Shown here: positions 11,778 to 15,893 of the stretch, piece after piece
Numbering within the stretch: position 1 is the stretch's first letter
How the letters are laid out: each line of letters opens with the position of its first letter
Translations under genes and position numbers: made by a program
The notes under the pieces: generated by a model
Told to the model about the DNA's origin: nothing
The model's input: the letters and a program-made list of their open reading frames with translations, nothing else
Database searches by the model: none
DNA from: an uncultured Candidatus Saccharibacteria bacterium
GTDB taxonomy: Bacteria > Patescibacteriota > Minisyncoccia > Phycocordibacterales > CAZPGN01
Assembly (NCBI GenBank): GCA_964586635.1
Contig: CAZPGN010000001.1
Span: 72,932 to 136,931 of the forward strand
Direction: 5' to 3'
Length of the DNA: 64,000 nucleotides

Positions 11778-11813
11778 ACGCGAAAAAACATTACTTCATA
11801 ATACAATAATCGT

Positions 11814-11823
11814 AGTATACCAC
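11814..11823 (-). promoter_or_regulatory. candidate extended -10 promoter (TGgTATACT on the minus strand) for the nrdH-like/trxB operon
   Basis: The reverse complement of 11814..11823 reads GTGGTATACT, about 37 nt upstream of the ATG at 11777. Confidence 0.3.
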
Positions 11824-11990
11824 ATCGAAAAAAGAAATCCTCGCGTTCGCCTGGATATAAATTAGCCTGCAAACTTTTGTTCGGTTAGCATGCGAATTCA
11901 CCCACAACGTAACTGCTCACAACTCTCTGCAACGTCGCTTAAGGATCGGCAAGCACCTTCGTTGCCTCCATCTGTGGGTTCGCTATACGA

Positions 11991-12803
11991 TTACAATGGG
12001 CTTTTGATCTTCTTCAATCTTGGATTGGTCACTTGTGTATATACTTGTGTGGTTCGTATGTTGCTATGCCCGAGCAACTCTTGTACATAGCGTACATCAG
12101 TGCCATTTTCTAGTAAGTGTGTAGCAAACGAATGACGCAACGAATGAAAGGTTGCCAATTTGCTAACTTTCGCACTTGTTAAACTTTTACGAAACATTTT
12201 TTGCAGAGATGTTGTCGTAAGCTTGCCACCTCGATTAGAGGCAAAAACAAAATCACTCATATTTTTGCCTGCGATTATATTTCGCAAATCGTTTTGTAAT
12301 TTTTCTGGCAACACACTAATCCTGTCTTTCTTGCCTTTTGCTCCCTTGATGTGCACAACAAGCTCATTGATGTCCAAATCTGCTACTTTTAGTTCTACAA
12401 CCTCGCTGACTCTCATGCCACAAGCATAACCAAGCGAAATCATCAGTTTATATTTTGAATTATCAGTTACTTCAATAATTTTCCCAATTTCCGCCCGCGA
12501 TAACACGACGGGCAACTTTTTGTTTCTCTTCGCAAATTTTAGGTCAATCTTCTGCGGGTCTTTTAAGACTTCAGCATATAAATATTTCACGGCATTGAGC
12601 GCCAGATTGATGGTTTGCGGGGATTGTTTTCGTTTGTGTTTGTCTAGCAGAAAGTCCTCAACCGCTTTTTGCTTATCTTTAATTCCTTTTTCTTTAGAAA
12701 AACTGATATACTCTCTTATATAGAGTAAGTATGCTTTACGAGTCTTTGTGGAGTAATTTCTAAGTTTTAAAATTCTTTCAGTTTTGTCTAAAATATTTTC
12801 CAT
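11991..12803 (-). CDS. site-specific tyrosine recombinase (phage integrase / XerC/D family)
   Basis: The C-terminal catalytic region HSLRHSFATHLLENGTDVRYVQELLGHSNIRTTQVYTQV has the R...HxxR...Y signature with the catalytic Tyr. The N-terminal SAM-like core-binding domain is present. The start is trimmed to MENILDK. Confidence 0.8.
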   Translation of the reverse strand: MENILDKTERILKLRNYSTKTRKAYLLYIREYISFSKEKGIKDKQKAVEDFLLDKHKRKQSPQTINLALNAVKYLYAEVLKDPQKIDLKFAKRNKKLPVVLSRAEIGKIIEVTDNSKYKLMISLGYACGMRVSEVVELKVADLDINELVVHIKGAKGKKDRISVLPEKLQNDLRNIIAGKNMSDFVFASNRGGKLTTTSLQKMFRKSLTSAKVSKLATFHSLRHSFATHLLENGTDVRYVQELLGHSNIRTTQVYTQVTNPRLKKIKSPL

Positions 12804-12925
12804 AATCAAATAGTAGCAAAGTTTGCATAACAAACAAGATATTGCTACAATATGATCACATAGTTCGTATAAAAACCAGTTGTACGAAATTGAAAAATTT
12901 TTTTAACTATTAATAAATTATTTTT

Positions 12926-13261
12926 ATGTCTCAAGTCACCATCAAACAAGCTCAACAAATAGTCGATGACTGGATTAAAAGTATTGGTGTCCGCTATTTT
13001 TCTGAAATGACCCAGCTGGCTCAATTAACGGAGGAAGTGGGCGAAGTCGCACGAATAGTCTCAAGAACTTATGGCGATCAAAGTTTTAAAAAGACGGATG
13101 ACAAAAATTTGTCTGATGAATTGGCGGATGTATTATTCGTGCTAATCTGTCTTGCTAATCAAACAGGCGTTGACTTAACCGAGGCATTTCAGAAAAATAT
13201 GGATAAAAAAACGAACAGAGATAAAGACCGACATAAAAATAATTTAAAATTAAAGAAGTAA
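12926..13261 (+). CDS. MazG-like nucleoside triphosphate pyrophosphohydrolase
   Basis: 111 aa. EEVGEVARIV…DELADVLFVLICLAN is the MazG/NTP-PPase EExxE…D motif. Confidence 0.65.
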   Translation: MSQVTIKQAQQIVDDWIKSIGVRYFSEMTQLAQLTEEVGEVARIVSRTYGDQSFKKTDDKNLSDELADVLFVLICLANQTGVDLTEAFQKNMDKKTNRDKDRHKNNLKLKK

Positions 13262-13461
13262 AAATTTTTCAACATCGCACAACACGGCATATCTGGTTTC
13301 GCTACGCTACACCCAAATTGCTACGCAACTTCAGATATGTCGAAACGTTATACGCCATAATAAAAAGCCTCTATTGATTTTTTATAATAATTTTGGCAAT
13401 TTATTAGGTGAGGTCGAGATAACTTCAACAATTCAACATTAATTATCTAACATAAAAAATT

Positions 13462-13938
13462 ATGCCTAAAAAACCAGAAACATTTGGAGGATTTTCTCCT
13501 GAACCAGGGAGCAAAGATGAAGAAACAAGACAAGTTGAAAGTCTTGAGGAATGGCAAAAATATTGCGAAGAAATGTCAGAGGCGCGCGGAGAACCAAAAG
13601 AAGAAGATTGGGATAGAATAATGCAAGACGAAATGGAGTCAGAAGCGAGAGACGTAGAGGTTTATATTAGAAGAGCAAGATTAGCAGGAGACACGCGTAC
13701 TATTAGAGAAATAATAGATGATAAGGATGAGTTGGAAATTAAATTAAATGCATATACGGAACAAAGAAAAAAAGATGGTACCTATACTAATCCTTGGAAT
13801 ATACTCGTAGATTTTATGAAAGAGAATGTTTCTTCGTATGCTGCTTATCTCCAAAAGAGACAAGAAGAGGACGCTGAAGCCGATCCGTGGAATATCTATC
13901 TCGAATGGAAAGTTGGAAAGGACTTGAAAGATAAATAA
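13462..13938 (+). CDS. hypothetical highly acidic protein (Glu/Asp-rich)
   Basis: 158 aa, strongly acidic (EEWQKYCEEMSEARGEPKEEDWDRIMQDEMESEARD…). No recognisable family. Confidence 0.45.
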   Translation: MPKKPETFGGFSPEPGSKDEETRQVESLEEWQKYCEEMSEARGEPKEEDWDRIMQDEMESEARDVEVYIRRARLAGDTRTIREIIDDKDELEIKLNAYTEQRKKDGTYTNPWNILVDFMKENVSSYAAYLQKRQEEDAEADPWNIYLEWKVGKDLKDK

Positions 13939-14139
13939 ATTGCCAAAATTCTTAAACGAATAAGGAAAGCGGCTTTTTATTACAGCGTATAACAATGAAT
14001 ATGCGGTTCATGAAATTGCGCTTCTTGATTTTTCATGGAGGCGCAATTTCTTTCACCCATATTTGCCTCCGCTTCGCTACAGCAAACATCGCATATTCAT
14101 GAACGTTAGGCGAAATTTCATTTTTTACATCTATCACAT

Positions 14140-14844
14140 ATGCCCGAAAATTTTGAACCTACAATAGAACAAACTAAGCCATATTGGCAAAGAATGCGAG
14201 AGTTAGAAGCTCAACTTTTTCCTGAATTTAGGGATGAGCATTTTTGTATTGATTCACCAGAGACAAACAATTTTTATTTCGCCCCGAATGTACATTTCAA
14301 AAAAGATTTGGTAACAGAAGCAGATGTCGAAAATTTTAGAAAAGATCCAAAGCGACAAATGTTAAGCGTCGGGTCTGGTCCTGCATATTTAGAAAGACTG
14401 TTGGTACATTTAGGTGTAAACAAAGACAACATCATCCTTGCAGATAAAGAGCCGAGGGATTTGCCGACCGACTTCAAAACTAAAATTTTCGACATGTTTG
14501 GAGAATGGCCTGAATTCGAAGATGATCAAAAATTTGATCTAATAATATTTCCAGAAAATCCGTCAATCAATGTTCACTATGACTACGGCGAGGAGCGAAT
14601 TCAGGCGTTCACCTCACTCTTTGCAAAAGCATTGCAGCACTTGAAGCCAGAGGGCGAAATAAAAATTACTGGTAATCCAAACAGTGAAGAGATAACGGAA
14701 AAAGTTGAGCATGAGCTAAGGAAAGCAGGTTATGATGTTACGGTTCAAAATTTTTCCAACAAAGGAAAGGAATCATTAATTGTAGTAAAAAATGAAACAT
14801 CGCCTAACAGCGTGTATGAGGTTCAAGAAAAAGTGCGTAAATAA
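14140..14844 (+). CDS. putative class I SAM-dependent methyltransferase-like protein
   Basis: Motif I-like LSVGSGPAYLERLL, post-I acidic IILADKEP and motif II-like FDLIIFPEN are arranged in Rossmann-MTase order. Confidence 0.4.
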   Translation: MPENFEPTIEQTKPYWQRMRELEAQLFPEFRDEHFCIDSPETNNFYFAPNVHFKKDLVTEADVENFRKDPKRQMLSVGSGPAYLERLLVHLGVNKDNIILADKEPRDLPTDFKTKIFDMFGEWPEFEDDQKFDLIIFPENPSINVHYDYGEERIQAFTSLFAKALQHLKPEGEIKITGNPNSEEITEKVEHELRKAGYDVTVQNFSNKGKESLIVVKNETSPNSVYEVQEKVRK

Positions 14845-15066
14845 TTTTCAAAGGTTGCATTTTTTCTTTCACCCAAATTGCGCTGACGATAATCAGAGTT
14901 TAGTGATACAATGAAAGTATTGAGATAAGCAATGTTTAATCTAAATAACACGGCGCAACTTCGCATCATGCGGAAACGTTATGCGCCATAATAAAAAGCC
15001 GCTCATAAATTTGACTTATTTTTCCTTTAGGATATAATAGAATCGTTACAATTCACTTCAAACTAT

Positions 15067-15285
15067 ATGCGCAAAATTGACTTAAAAAATGTGGTGTGGA
15101 AAGAAGGAAAATATTATGTTTCCTGGAACCTAAACACGGCGATTTCTAGTTTTGGCGACACCAAAAAAGAAGCCCTTTTGGCGCTCCAAGAAGCATTAGA
15201 ATTATATTTTGAGGACATCCCAATTTCCAAAATAAACAAAGTGGAACGACCCGACTTGGTCCCATTTGTTTTTCAGCATGCCTAG
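15067..15285 (+). CDS. hicB: HicB-family antitoxin (UPF0150-like)
   Basis: 72 aa. It is immediately upstream of, and overlaps, a HicA-like toxin. The WKEGKYYVSWNLN…GDTKKEALLALQEALELYFE pattern matches the HicB N-terminal domain. Confidence 0.55.
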   Translation: MRKIDLKNVVWKEGKYYVSWNLNTAISSFGDTKKEALLALQEALELYFEDIPISKINKVERPDLVPFVFQHA

Positions 15286-15499
15286 ACCTATTCCCCTGAA
15301 ACAGGTAATCCGAGTCCTTAGAGATAAGGGCTTCTTTTTTGTGTCGCAGAAAGGTTCACACGCAAAGTTTCGTAAACCAGGAAGTCCAACTCGTACTGTA
15401 ATTGTAAAAATGGCAAAGAAAGAAGTACCGTACGGAACCTTTCAGTCGATTTTGCTTCAATCAGAATTAAAAGAAAGTGATTTTCGAGAGGAAAAATAA
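15278..15499 (+). CDS. hicA: HicA-family mRNA interferase toxin
   Basis: MPRPIPLKQVIRVLRDKGFFFVSQKGSHAKFRKPGSPTRTVIVKMAKKEVPYGTFQSIL matches the HicA/YcfA fold (KGSHxxF…P.H). The ATG overlaps the hicB stop (ATGCCTAG). Confidence 0.7.
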   Translation: MPRPIPLKQVIRVLRDKGFFFVSQKGSHAKFRKPGSPTRTVIVKMAKKEVPYGTFQSILLQSELKESDFREEK

Positions 15500-15534
15500 G
15501 TCAAACTTCAGATATGCGGATACGTTGTGTCGGG

Positions 15535-15557
15535 TCAAAGGTGTCAGGAACCTTTGA
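15535..15557. repeat. degenerate REP-like hairpin (TCAAAGGTGTCAGGAACCTTTGA) near the right end of the island
   Basis: Stem TCAAAGG/CCTTTGA. The loop TGTCAGGAA resembles the loop GGTCAGGAG of the canonical repeat. Confidence 0.3.
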
Positions 15558-15893
15558 CCAATAATGTTTAGTTCGTAATGCAATCAATAGTATAGCACTT
15601 AAGAAAAAAGAAAGCCTCGCGGATGCGAGGCGATCGATGAATCTCGGCGCATAAAACTGAAACCAAGGAGGTGAAACTAGTCTGCAGCGATTGAAGCGCC
15701 GAGAACTAAATGAACTAATTCGAGATTTTAATGCGAGGGCAATTAGCTTTCGGAAAACTGATTCTCACTGTAAAACTCTGCCCTCGCACTAGTAGTTTAG
15801 CATGGGATATCGAGCAGTCAATTACATTGCAATGTGAACAATAATGCGTAGAATGAAATCGGTACTGAACATTCAACCACGCGAGGAGGATGT

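What the first reader, a model, noticed from the sequence alone, without database searches (positions are those of the whole stretch)
12834..15560. Integron-like layout: divergent recombinase followed by four cargo genes, each followed by about 200 bp with a shared imperfect-palindrome motif ending in GTT-RYR-Y
Every gene in the island is followed by a long spacer that contains a related 30-35-nt element:
- GCAACTTCAGATATGTCGAAACGTTATACGCC (13323..13363)
- GCAAACATCGCATATTCATGAACGTTAGGCG (14080..14110)
- GCAACTTCGCATCATGCGGAAACGTTATGCGCC (14946..14981)
- CAAACTTCAGATATGCGGATACGTTGTGTCG (15506..15533)

Two spacers also share CACCCAAATTGC, and two share AACGTTATRCGCCATAATAAAAAGCC. The element at 14104..14110 has an exact GTTAGGC (the attC R-prime consensus GTTRRRY) and pairs with an upstream GTTCATGAA/TTCATGAAC inverted repeat.

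The recombinase is transcribed away from the array, as intI is from attI. It is only about 270 aa, so it lacks the IntI-specific insertion. If this is a cassette system, it is not a classical integron.
Basis: partly seen in the sequence, partly recalled or inferred. Interest (0 to 1): 0.7.

Follow-up and report, generated by a model that had tools for sequence, protein, structure and literature searches.

The report
Integron-like cassette array with short integrase
A small imported island in an ultra-small (CPR/Patescibacteria) bacterium is built like an integron, with a recombinase, a docking site and four swappable gene cassettes that each end in a folded recombination site, but its recombinase lacks the extra domain that defines every known integron integrase, and the same system recurs across many CPR lineages.

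Summary
A 27-nt motif matches three times in 64 kb (0.06 expected). A profile finds all four copies, only in this island.

It is a gene-cassette system of the integron type. A divergent tyrosine recombinase (270 aa) sits next to a conserved attI-like site, followed by four same-strand cassettes. Two end in complete attC-like sites. The third site is chimeric and the last is a half-site.

Evidence from 16 related CPR loci:
- The variable bases of each site's left box pair with the start of its own cassette (73/76), not with the adjacent next cassette (34/76, chance level). This places the crossover at AAC|GTT.
- Both stems covary strongly.
- The window's third cassette is the first cassette in two other integrase platforms. 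Homology starts exactly at the G of GTT.
- Two otherwise identical strains diverge within six bases after the GTT.

The recombinase is closest to IntI (NCBIfam, PDB, plasmid IntI1). It lacks the roughly 45-aa IntI-specific domain and scores below the IntI cut-off, and the sites lack bulged bases in the L stem. It is therefore not a classical integron.

I found no report of integrons in CPR bacteria. Verdict: new variant of a known kind, high interest. All evidence is computational.

The parts
11991..12803 (-). IntI-like tyrosine recombinase, 270 aa. It starts at the ATG at 12803; the mechanical ORF extends to a TTG at 12833. It has no IntI-specific additional domain.
   Evidence: Pfam PF00589 plus PF13495. 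The top NCBIfam hit is TIGR02249 integron integrase at 219.7 bits (cut-off 265), matched in two stretches. The best PDB hit is VchIntIA 2a3v in two stretches that skip residues ~211-241 of IntI. IntI1 needs 936 nt to cover 267 query residues, and the alignment shows the gap. A 100% identical 270-aa protein is P0001.
12804..12881 (+). attI-like docking region. It holds two direct boxes, AGTTTGCATAAC (12820-12831) and AGTTCGTATAAAAACCA (12862-12878), and the crossover GTT at 12879-12881.
   Evidence: About 75 bp are conserved upstream of the integrase in 26 of 28 CPR loci. Conservation stops at ...ATAAAAACCA|GTT, after which each locus has a different cassette.
12823..12851 (+). Pc-like outward promoter candidate: TTGCAT, 17 nt ending in TGC, then TACAAT. 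It reads into the array.
   Evidence: Promoter scan. The same element lies at a fixed 28 nt from the crossover in 16 related loci, and variation keeps TAnnnT. Function is inferred, not shown.
12879..13346 (+). Cassette 1: MazG-family pyrophosphohydrolase gene (12926-13261) plus attC-like site 1.
   Evidence: Pfam MazG 6.9e-17. The cassette start GTTGTACGAAATTGAAAAATTTTT is complementary to 13260-13283 (I7).
13277..13353 (+). attC-like site 1 (77 nt): R'' GCACAAC, A, L'' 13285-13296, loop with CACCCAAATTGC, L' 13331-13342, AAAC, crossover G at 13347.
   Evidence: L''/L' match 10 of 12. DNA fold z -4.3 for the bottom strand and -3.1 for the top.
13347..14104 (+). Cassette 2: 158-aa protein with no family match (13462-13938) plus attC-like site 2.
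   Evidence: No Pfam or NCBIfam hit. The 5' flank 13347-13405 is complementary to the 3' flank 13934-13993 (I5 and I9).
13987..14111 (+). attC-like site 2 (125 nt): R'' GTATAAC, L'' 13994-14005, hairpin P2, CACCCATATTTGC, hairpin P3, L' about 14090-14100, GAAC, crossover G at 14105.
   Evidence: L''/L' match 11 of 12. DNA fold z -7.8 for the bottom strand and -6.0 for the top.
14105..14977 (+). Cassette 3: 234-aa methyltransferase-like protein (14140-14844) plus a chimeric, probably defunct, site 3 (14802-14984).
   Evidence: Weak PF05175 hit. The start is complementary to 14785-14808, which ends in GCCTAAC (I6). The same cassette occurs in L081-L087 with homology starting at 14105. The L087 copy has an intact site, while in the window 14884-14977 is unrelated and L' does not pair with L''.
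14978..15523 (+). Cassette 4: hicB-like antitoxin (15067-15285) and HicA toxin (15278-15499), with its own promoter (15011-15038). It ends in a right half-site only (15498-15530, crossover G at 15524).
   Evidence: Pfam HicA 9.6e-14 and DUF7387. TTGACT-16-TATAAT matches 11 of 12. The arm 15490-15505 pairs with 15010-15025 (I2). No L'' or R'' partner was found.
15533..15559 (+). Terminator-like hairpin that closes the array.
   Evidence: 10-bp stem GGTCAAAGGT/ACCTTTGACC.
11790..11846 (.). Left copy of a ~57-bp imperfect direct repeat that brackets the whole AT-rich island.
   Evidence: 77% identical to 15558-15621. The island is 35-39% GC against about 50% in the flanks.
15558..15621 (.). Right copy of the island-flanking direct repeat.
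   Evidence: It overlaps a minus-strand terminator at 15631-15614.

Best explanation
This is a site-specific gene-cassette capture system of the integron type. It sits on a horizontally acquired AT-rich island in a Candidatus Vogelbacteria (CPR) genome.

The 270-aa tyrosine recombinase is transcribed away from the array. Between it and the first cassette lies a conserved attI-like site with a promoter-like element that reads into the cassettes. Each cassette is a discrete unit. It begins at GTT-RYRY-(C)GAAAT and ends in a 77-183-nt attC-like site. The site's layout is: R'' box (RYRYAAC), one A, an 11-12-bp L stem, a three-way junction made of two variable hairpins separated by single-stranded CCCAWAT, the other half of the L stem, four unpaired bases (NNAC), and then the crossover.

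Shown: strand exchange happens at AAC|GTT, so the bases to the right of the crossover belong to the next cassette. Cassettes have moved between arrays and array positions in nature.

Inferred: the recombinase next door is the enzyme. The site acts in a folded, single-stranded or extruded DNA form, probably the bottom strand. Recognition does not use extrahelical bases or the I2 helix, because both the bulged bases and the protein domain that reads them are absent.

In this window only sites 1 and 2 are intact. Site 3 is chimeric and site 4 is a half-site, so the distal part of the array is probably frozen.
For: Association of sites with the recombinase:
- The element profile hits only the island in the window.
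- In 16 CPR loci that carry an integrase homolog it gives 43 hits, all on the strand opposite the integrase. 42 of the 43 lie upstream of the integrase start, up to 7 per locus.

attI:
- About 75 bp next to the integrase are conserved, and conservation ends at the GTT.

Crossover:
- Across 19 sites, the four variable R-box bases pair with the cassette's own start in 73 of 76 cells. They pair with the adjacent next cassette's start in 34 of 76, which equals the random figure of 48%.

Structure:
- 84% of cells are paired against 64% in shuffles (0 of 500). 21 of 30 pairs show compensatory change. Slid controls give 27-42%.
- The P3 hairpin forms 6.4 of 8 pairs against 3.5 in mismatched-site controls.
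- L''/L' reached at least 10 of 12 at 27 of 49 sites, where about 1.4 would be expected by chance. In every case it lay directly after an AAC.
- G-T pairs are no commoner than A-C (14 versus 10). This fits DNA pairing better than RNA pairing.
- The bottom strand is more stable than the top in 18 of 19 sites (p = 1.5e-4). The circularised form is more stable than the array form in 19 of 19.

Mobility:
- Cassette 3 of the window is the first cassette in L087 and in L081-83, and an internal cassette in L084. Nucleotide homology begins at window base 14105, the G of GTT.
- L081/L083 and L082 are 100% identical through integrase and cassette 1 up to AAACGTTAG, then unrelated.
- No window cassette protein recurs in the 80 genome loci.

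Recombinase affinity:
- IntI is the top family, the top structure and the dominant plasmid hit.

Horizontal spread:
- The integrase is 83-89% identical across CPR phyla. A housekeeping TrxR from the same genome finds 77% and then 67% or less.
Against: - There is no experiment. Everything rests on MAG and metagenome sequence.
- The recombinase lacks the IntI additional domain, which the literature treats as necessary for integron recombination and for single-strand attC recognition (PMC9668308 citing Messier and Roy 2001; PMC7790495 abstract). It scores below the TIGR02249 cut-off.
- The sites were selected for L pairing, which inflates the paired percentage of the L helix. The own-versus-next R-box test is free of that selection.
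- The strand bias comes from nearest-neighbour energies only.
- Assemblies of this same strain show one cassette order.
- Two of the four sites in the window are degenerate.
- Half of the related platforms sit next to tRNA genes, so the recombinase may also, or instead, serve island integration.
Confidence: 0.85

Rival explanations
1. This is a Xer/dif-type module system. The repeats would be double-stranded core sites, like the pdif modules of Acinetobacter plasmids, recombined as ordinary duplex DNA by a Xer-like enzyme. The hairpin potential would be incidental.
For: The recombinase has Xer length and architecture with no I2 helix. It scores 201 bits on archaeal XerA and 177 on XerD. AACGTT at the crossover is palindromic. 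According to PMC7790495, I2 was the innovation that allowed single-strand recombination.
Against: All Xer models score below their cut-offs and below the IntI model. The sites are 77-183 nt, not 28-30 bp. The sequence to the left of the crossover is unrelated between attI and the cassette sites. Stem sequences vary freely while staying complementary, and two internal hairpins covary, which duplex recognition does not require. All sites share one orientation, unlike the alternating pdif sites.
Confidence: 0.08
2. This is an ordinary integrative island whose integrase acts only at the island ends. The repeated elements would be RNA-level structures on the cargo genes, such as 3'-UTR stabilisers or terminators, or a family of small repeats.
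For: A ~57-bp imperfect direct repeat brackets the island. tRNA genes adjoin the integrase in 8 of 17 loci. The elements lie in 3' UTRs on the sense strand, and they contain a conserved single-stranded motif, which is unusual for attC.
Against: Homology breakpoints between arrays fall at or within six bases of the GTT. The own-versus-next complementarity has no RNA rationale that also explains those breakpoints. The attI region is conserved up to the GTT. There is no excess of G-T wobble pairs. Rfam gives no match. None of the sites is followed by a T-run, and the scan found terminator-like sites only elsewhere.
Confidence: 0.03
3. This is a classical integron whose integrase gene is a decayed or truncated copy, so the missing domain is an artefact of this genome.
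For: The distal sites of this array are degenerate.
Against: The 270-aa form is intact, with R, K, HxxR, H and Y motifs present. It is conserved at 80-89% identity in the 120 best homologs listed, out of 7,712 with E <= 1e-20, nearly all 266-281 aa. All relatives aligned lack the insertion.
Confidence: 0.02

Closest known systems
Classical bacterial integrons (class 1; Vibrio sedentary chromosomal integrons; VchIntIA/attC)
   Same: The integrase is divergent and sits next to attI. Crossover is at a GTT. The attI simple site has the same geometry: a 7-bp box, a 6-7-bp spacer, then GTTRxxY. Cassettes are 470-870 bp, on one strand, with unrelated cargo. Each ends in an imperfect palindrome with RYYYAAC-like and GTTRRRY-like boxes plus an inner L stem and a variable terminal structure. 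The first bases of a cassette complement its own inverse core. A toxin-antitoxin cassette carries its own promoter. The integrase is closest to IntI by sequence.
   Different: There is no IntI additional domain or I2 helix. W157 of VchIntIA is a lysine here (alignment; the role of W157 is from my own knowledge of the 2A3V structure). The R' consensus is GTT-R-Y/K-R-Y rather than GTTRRRY. The R stem extends to 12-60 bp, with a conserved 2x2 mismatch. The R-L spacer is an asymmetric 1x4 loop. The L stem has no bulged bases. The interior is a three-way junction with conserved single-stranded CCCAWAT. The platform is about 85% conserved across phylum-level CPR lineages and often lies next to tRNA genes.
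Archaeal integrons (Ghaly et al. 2022, PMC9668308)
   Same: These also extend integrons beyond well-studied bacteria, were found in MAGs, and consist of cassette arrays next to a tyrosine recombinase.
   Different: The archaeal IntIs are reported to keep the IntI-specific additional domain, and their attCs fit the bacterial attC model. Here the domain is absent.
Xer/dif and pdif modules
   Same: The recombinase has Xer size and domain layout (PF13495/PF02899 plus PF00589).
   Different: There are multiple long structured sites in a single orientation next to the recombinase gene, with strong hairpin covariation. Xer models score below the IntI model and below their own cut-offs.
tRNA-targeting integrative islands
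   Same: The island is AT-rich and bounded by direct repeats. Related platforms abut the 3' side of tRNA genes.
   Different: The cargo has an internal modular cassette structure with its own recombination sites. Many different tRNA species are neighbours of nearly identical integrases. No tRNA-derived attL/attR repeat was found.

Membership tests
Integron | An integrase that is a tyrosine recombinase carrying the IntI-specific additional domain (patch III / I2 alpha-helix). | tested here: not met
   VchIntIA aligns in two stretches that skip about 30 residues. IntI1 has about 45 extra residues at that place. The catalytic R-K-HxxR-H-Y motifs are present.
Integron | The integrase scores above the curated cut-off of the integron-integrase family model. 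| tested here: not met
   TIGR02249 gives 219.7 bits against a cut-off of 265. PRK15417 gives 137 against 435. TIGR02249 is still the best-scoring family.
Integron | An attI site next to the integrase gene start, where cassettes are inserted at a GTT. | tested here: met
   A conserved block of about 75 bp ends at ...AAAAACCA|GTT in 26 of 28 loci, and a different cassette follows in each. The same cassette is joined to two different attI regions at that exact base.
Integron | Cassettes end in sites with inverse-core (RYYYAAC) and core (GTTRRRY) boxes. The crossover is in the core, so a cassette's first bases complement its own inverse core. | tested here: met
   Pairing with the own start is 73 of 76. 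Pairing with the next start is 34 of 76, against 48% at random. The consensus is GTT-R-Y/K-R-Y, slightly off GTTRRRY.
Integron | The attC fold: R box, unpaired central spacer, L box with extrahelical bases, and a variable terminal structure. | tested here: inconclusive
   R and L stems and a variable interior are present and covary. The spacer is a 1x4 loop, and the 11-bp L stem is continuous with no bulged bases.
Integron | A score with the attC covariance model of IntegronFinder. | not testable with these tools
   The model is not available here. Rfam gave no match in this region.
Integron | A Pc promoter in or next to intI that reads into the array. | tested here: inconclusive
   TTGCAT-17(TGn)-TACAAT lies at 12823-12851 and is conserved at a fixed distance in 16 loci. 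There are no expression data.
Integron | Cassettes are mobile: the same cassette appears in different arrays or positions, and arrays differ between strains. | tested here: met
   Cassette 3 is first in L081-83 and L087 and internal in L084. L081 and L082 diverge after GTTAG.
Integron | Recombination of the folded bottom strand of attC. | not testable with these tools
   The only evidence is an energy bias: the bottom strand is more stable in 18 of 19 sites.
Xer/dif chromosome-dimer resolution | One 28-30-bp dif site per replicon, and a recombinase that meets the XerC, XerD or XerA model. | tested here: not met
   There are four sites of 77-183 nt in 2.7 kb. XerD scores 177 against 330, XerC 175 against 335, and XerA 201 against 220.
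pdif modules | Modules bounded by oppositely oriented XerC/D and XerD/C sites, with the recombinase encoded elsewhere. | tested here: not met
   All sites share one orientation, and the recombinase is adjacent.
tRNA-targeting integrative island | An integrase next to a tRNA gene, with a direct repeat of the tRNA 3' end at the far end of the island. | tested here: inconclusive
   The window has no adjacent tRNA but does have a 57-bp flanking repeat. 8 of 17 related loci have a tRNA beside the integrase. No tRNA-end repeats were found.

The most novel reading that the evidence does not exclude
A distinct integron lineage without the I2 helix is widespread and horizontally mobile across the Candidate Phyla Radiation. 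It may have patch-less relatives in Spirochaetes, Bacillota, Atribacteria and Bacteroidota. It would recombine folded three-way-junction DNA sites without the extrahelical-base and I2-helix recognition thought to be essential for integron function. That makes it either a surviving pre-I2 'proto-integron' state or an independent solution to structure-specific recombination. It would also be a main route of gene gain in these reduced genomes.
Probability: 0.45. Interest if true: 0.9.

Novelty: new variant of a known kind. Interest (0 to 1): 0.8.

Why it matters
Integron integrases are defined by an extra domain. That domain is regarded as necessary for activity, and as the innovation that allowed recombination of folded single-stranded attC sites (PMC9668308, PMC7790495). 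Here a natural system has the full integron logic: attI, a crossover at GTT, structured cassette sites, and cassettes that demonstrably moved. Yet it has neither that domain nor the bulged bases the domain reads. This makes the question of how integrons arose from Xer-like recombinases directly testable. One can ask whether this enzyme recombines hairpins, and how.

It also matters for CPR/Patescibacteria biology. These organisms have tiny genomes and few known mobile elements. A 2021 review's list of phyla with integrons does not include them (PMC8618304). IntegronFinder-type screens require the IntI domain (my own knowledge of how that tool works), so they would miss these platforms. The integrase is about 85% identical across phylum-level lineages, and its cassettes carry nucleotide-metabolism, toxin-antitoxin and unknown genes. 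That points to a shared cassette pool across the radiation.

Tried and rejected
- **Rfam.** A scan of 11-17 kb at E <= 1 gave no match.
- **First complementarity test.** An ungapped 16-mer own-versus-next test gave a mixed result: 28 own-better, 9 next-better, 8 ties. The profile had missed intermediate sites and ORF-less cassettes. It was replaced by the anchored R-box test.
- **G-T versus A-C mismatch asymmetry as a strand indicator.** No signal: 14 versus 10.
- **GTT after L'' pairing with AAC of AACTTC.** This competes with the better-supported P3 hairpin and is left ambiguous.
- **Viral contigs.** No relative of the integrase was found.
- **Cassette 2 protein in metagenome contigs.** No relative was found.
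- **Empty-site test for the island.** The closest housekeeping relative is only 77% identical and sits on a 2-kb contig, so no syntenic genome without the island was available.
- **tRNA-derived attL/attR repeats around related platforms.** None was found. The matches were other tRNA genes.
- **Cassette order variation in the same strain.** Four assemblies show the same order, and contigs simply break inside the array.
- **Not attempted.** I did not build a covariance model of the whole site, because the variable hairpins are too length-variable for the alignment tool. I did not predict the integrase structure, because the sequence alignments already settle the domain question.


Full report
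**Setting.** The window is a 50% GC genome stretch. A 3.8-kb AT-rich island (35-39% GC) lies at about 11.85-15.62 kb. The integrase is identical to a protein from a Candidatus Vogelbacteria MAG, so the host is a CPR/Patescibacteria bacterium. The island holds a tyrosine recombinase on the minus strand (11991-12803) and five plus-strand ORFs: MazG, a 158-aa unknown, a weakly methyltransferase-like 234-aa protein, a HicB-like antitoxin and HicA.

**The observation.** The repeated element is real and specific.
- A degenerate 27-nt pattern derived from it matches three times, against 0.06 expected and 0 of 100 shuffles.
- A profile of the element finds all four copies and nothing else in 64 kb.

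The element is only the right third of a longer site. Repeat analysis showed that the first ~24 nt of each cassette, starting at GTTGTAC 12879, GTTATAC 13347 and GTTAGGC 14105, are complementary to a segment just after that same cassette's gene. Those segments end in GCACAAC, GTATAAC and GCCTAAC (I7, I5, I6). This is what an integron crossover at G|TT predicts, because the bases to the right of the crossover belong to the next cassette.

**Related loci.** The recombinase has 7,712 homologs with E <= 1e-20, and the best 120 listed are 80-88% identical. They carry labels from many CPR lineages: Spechtbacterales, Paceibacterota, Moraniibacteriota, Gracilibacteria and Kerfeldbacteria. A scan of one genome per species returned 80 loci, about 37 of them CPR-type. 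Many contigs end 80-400 bp upstream of the integrase start, which is where the array would be.

The half-site profile gave 43 hits in 16 CPR loci. All 43 were on the strand opposite the integrase, and 42 lay upstream of its start, as in the window. One locus had 7.

The ~75 bp between the integrase start and the first GTT are conserved in 26 of 28 loci. This block holds two direct boxes of the form AGTTYGNATAA, the second extended to ...AAAAACCA. Conservation stops at the GTT, after which every locus differs. The block has the geometry of an attI simple site. It also contains TTG[CT]AT-17(TGn)-TAnnnT at a fixed 28 nt from the crossover in 16 loci, reading into the array. This is a Pc-like promoter by inference only.

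**Site anatomy.** I searched for the complement of the 12 nt that lie 5-16 nt left of each crossover. A match of at least 10 of 12 turned up at 27 of 49 sites, where about 1.4 would be expected by chance. In every case it began one or two bases after an AAC.

The site runs as follows:
- (C)ATCG-RYRY-AAC (R'')
- a single A
- L'' (12 nt)
- hairpin P2
- (TC)A-CCCAWAT, present in 23 of 27 sites
- hairpin P3
- C[TA]T
- L' (12 nt)
- NNAC
- the crossover, then GTT-RYRY-(C)GAAAT of the next cassette

Sites are 77-172 nt long in the related loci.

I built 19 'circularised' constructs from the site's left part, its right part and the cassette's own start.
- 84% of cells pair, against 64% in shuffles (0 of 500).
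- 21 of 30 pairs show compensatory changes.
- Slid controls give 27-42%.

The L-stem figure is inflated, because sites were chosen for L pairing. The R-stem figure is not.

P3 pairs at 6.4 of 8 positions, against 3.5 for arms taken from different sites.

The L stem is continuous, with no bulged bases. The asymmetries are a 1x4 internal loop between R and L, a conserved 2x2 mismatch in the extended R stem, and the junction linker.

**The crossover test.** Across the 19 sites, the four variable R-box bases form Watson-Crick pairs with the start of the same cassette in 73 of 76 cells. With the physically adjacent start of the next cassette they pair in 34 of 76. The figure is 48% for starts drawn from other arrays. 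Cassettes are therefore discrete units bounded at AAC|GTT.

**Mobility.** The window's cassette 3 protein has homologs of 83-91% identity.
- In L087 and in L081-83 that cassette is the first one, directly next to an integrase.
- In L084 it sits inside a long same-strand array of nucleotide-metabolism genes that has at least five further sites.
- Nucleotide homology to L087 and L081-83 starts at window base 14105, the G of GTTAGGCG. The upstream sequence is site 2 in the window but attI in the others.
- L081/L083 and L082 come from different samples. They are 100% identical through the integrase and cassette 1 up to AAACGTTAG and unrelated afterwards.
- None of the window's cassette proteins recurs in the 80 genome loci.

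**State of this array.** Sites 1 and 2 are complete and fold well. As circularised single-stranded DNA their z-scores run from -3.1 to -7.8. Site 3 shares its left half with the intact L087 site, but its right half (14884-14977) is unrelated and its L' does not pair. Site 4 is only a right half-site. The hicBA cassette keeps a strong promoter of its own. Four assemblies of the same strain show the same order.

**The recombinase.**
- Its best NCBIfam model is integron integrase TIGR02249: 219.7 bits against a cut-off of 265, in two stretches. Next come archaeal XerA (201), XerD (177) and XerC (175), all below their cut-offs.
- Its best solved structure is VchIntIA, aligned in two pieces that skip the IntI-specific region.
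- Against 72,556 plasmids, the listed rows (40 sampled evenly down the 5,000-record ranking) are dominated by IntI1, which needs 936 nt to cover 267 query residues.
- A MAFFT alignment shows the two-part IntI1 insertion missing from all 18 CPR and related sequences. Identity is 35% to IntI1, 28% to XerD and 25% to XerC.
- A crude NJ tree puts the patch-less clade with IntI1 and XerC/D outside it. That tree has one IntI and midpoint rooting, so it is indicative only.

**Folded DNA or duplex?** Free variation of stem sequence with kept complementarity, in four separate helices, argues for a folded form. G-T pairs are no commoner than A-C and are rare in the pair table, which fits DNA better than RNA. 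With DNA parameters the bottom strand is more stable than the top in 18 of 19 sites (mean -31.8 against -27.6 kcal/mol, p = 1.5e-4). The own-start form is more stable than the array form in 19 of 19. These results suggest bottom-strand use but do not prove it.

The absence of bulged bases matches the absence of the protein domain that reads them in VchIntIA. That role of the domain is established knowledge of the 2A3V structure, not something tested here.

**How the platform spreads.** The integrase is 83-89% identical across phylum-level CPR lineages. A housekeeping thioredoxin reductase of this genome finds 77% and then 67% or less. The platform is therefore transferred horizontally. In the window it is bracketed by a 57-bp imperfect direct repeat. 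In 8 of 17 related loci a tRNA gene lies 8-250 bp beyond the integrase stop. No mechanism could be established.

**Literature.** Seven full-text searches found no description of integrons or attC arrays in CPR/Patescibacteria. A 2021 review lists 14 phyla with integrons, without them (PMC8618304). The archaeal integron paper restates that the additional domain defines IntI and is needed for recombination (PMC9668308). The library does not cover subscription journals, so prior description cannot be excluded.

**Verdict.** The system works like an integron and is probably homologous to integrons. It fails two defining membership tests, the IntI domain and the family cut-off, and its sites form a distinct family. 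I rate it a new variant of a known kind, with high interest.

Noticed in passing
window 11790-11846 and 15558-15621: A ~57-bp imperfect direct repeat (77% identity) brackets the whole AT-rich island, meaning the integrase plus the array. The right copy overlaps a minus-strand terminator. This suggests the entire platform inserted as a unit upstream of the glutaredoxin gene.
   Followed up: partly
L003, L004, L005, L007, L010, L012, L025, L027 (just beyond the integrase stop): In 8 of 17 CPR loci a tRNA gene (Ser, Leu, Val or Ala) on the opposite strand lies 8-250 bp past the integrase stop. That is far more often than tRNA density predicts. No tRNA-derived attL/attR repeat was found.
   Followed up: partly
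L027 8844-9056 versus 2269-2481: A 214-bp inverted repeat (92% identity) brackets the integrase and its six-cassette array, next to a tRNA-Ala gene.
   Followed up: no
L040, L043, L052, L061, L079: Patch-less recombinases 38-45% identical to the window's occur in Spirochaetes, Bacillota, Atribacteria and Bacteroidales MAGs. They have one or two sites with the same R''-N-L''...L'-NNAC|GTT geometry. These sites lie on the same strand as the recombinase and 2-6 kb downstream of it. Some of these proteins carry an extra N-terminal domain.
   Followed up: no
L005, L010, L015, L016, L026 (first 100-220 bp after attI): These loci have ORF-less cassettes. The cassette start is followed almost at once by its own complement and a site, with no gene in between.
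   Followed up: no
window 12901-13273; L095-L174: The MazG cassette gene has more than 546 homologs (69-81% aa identity in the 80 kept) in metagenome contigs; the eight checked have 28-39% GC. None of the 80 kept has an attC-like site or an integrase within 4 kb. Nucleotide homology covers the gene only, not the cassette arms. The gene therefore looks recruited from ordinary chromosomal genes of low-GC relatives.
   Followed up: partly
L084 1671-6857: This array's cassettes encode nucleotide-metabolism functions: an HD-domain protein, AdoMet decarboxylase-like, 2-thiouracil desulfurase, radical SAM and dCMP deaminase. They sit next to thyA, folA and tmk.
   Followed up: no
L091 (GenBank JACOVY010000015), L092-L094, and many of L001-L036: Contigs of the same strain and of many other MAGs end inside or just before the array. 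The public MAG contig stops 60 bp upstream of the integrase. These arrays are therefore systematically under-assembled and would be missed in MAG surveys.
   Followed up: partly
window 13310-13316, 14054-14060, 14868-14874 and 23 of 27 related sites: A single-stranded CCCAWAT motif is conserved between the two internal hairpins of the site. It has no counterpart in classical attC sites, and its function is unknown.
   Followed up: partly
window 11975-11990 (minus strand, just after the integrase stop); L002, L005, L015: A short conserved motif, TATAGCGAACCC, followed by a hairpin lies directly downstream of the integrase stop in several loci. It may be a terminator or part of the platform's end.
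   Followed up: no
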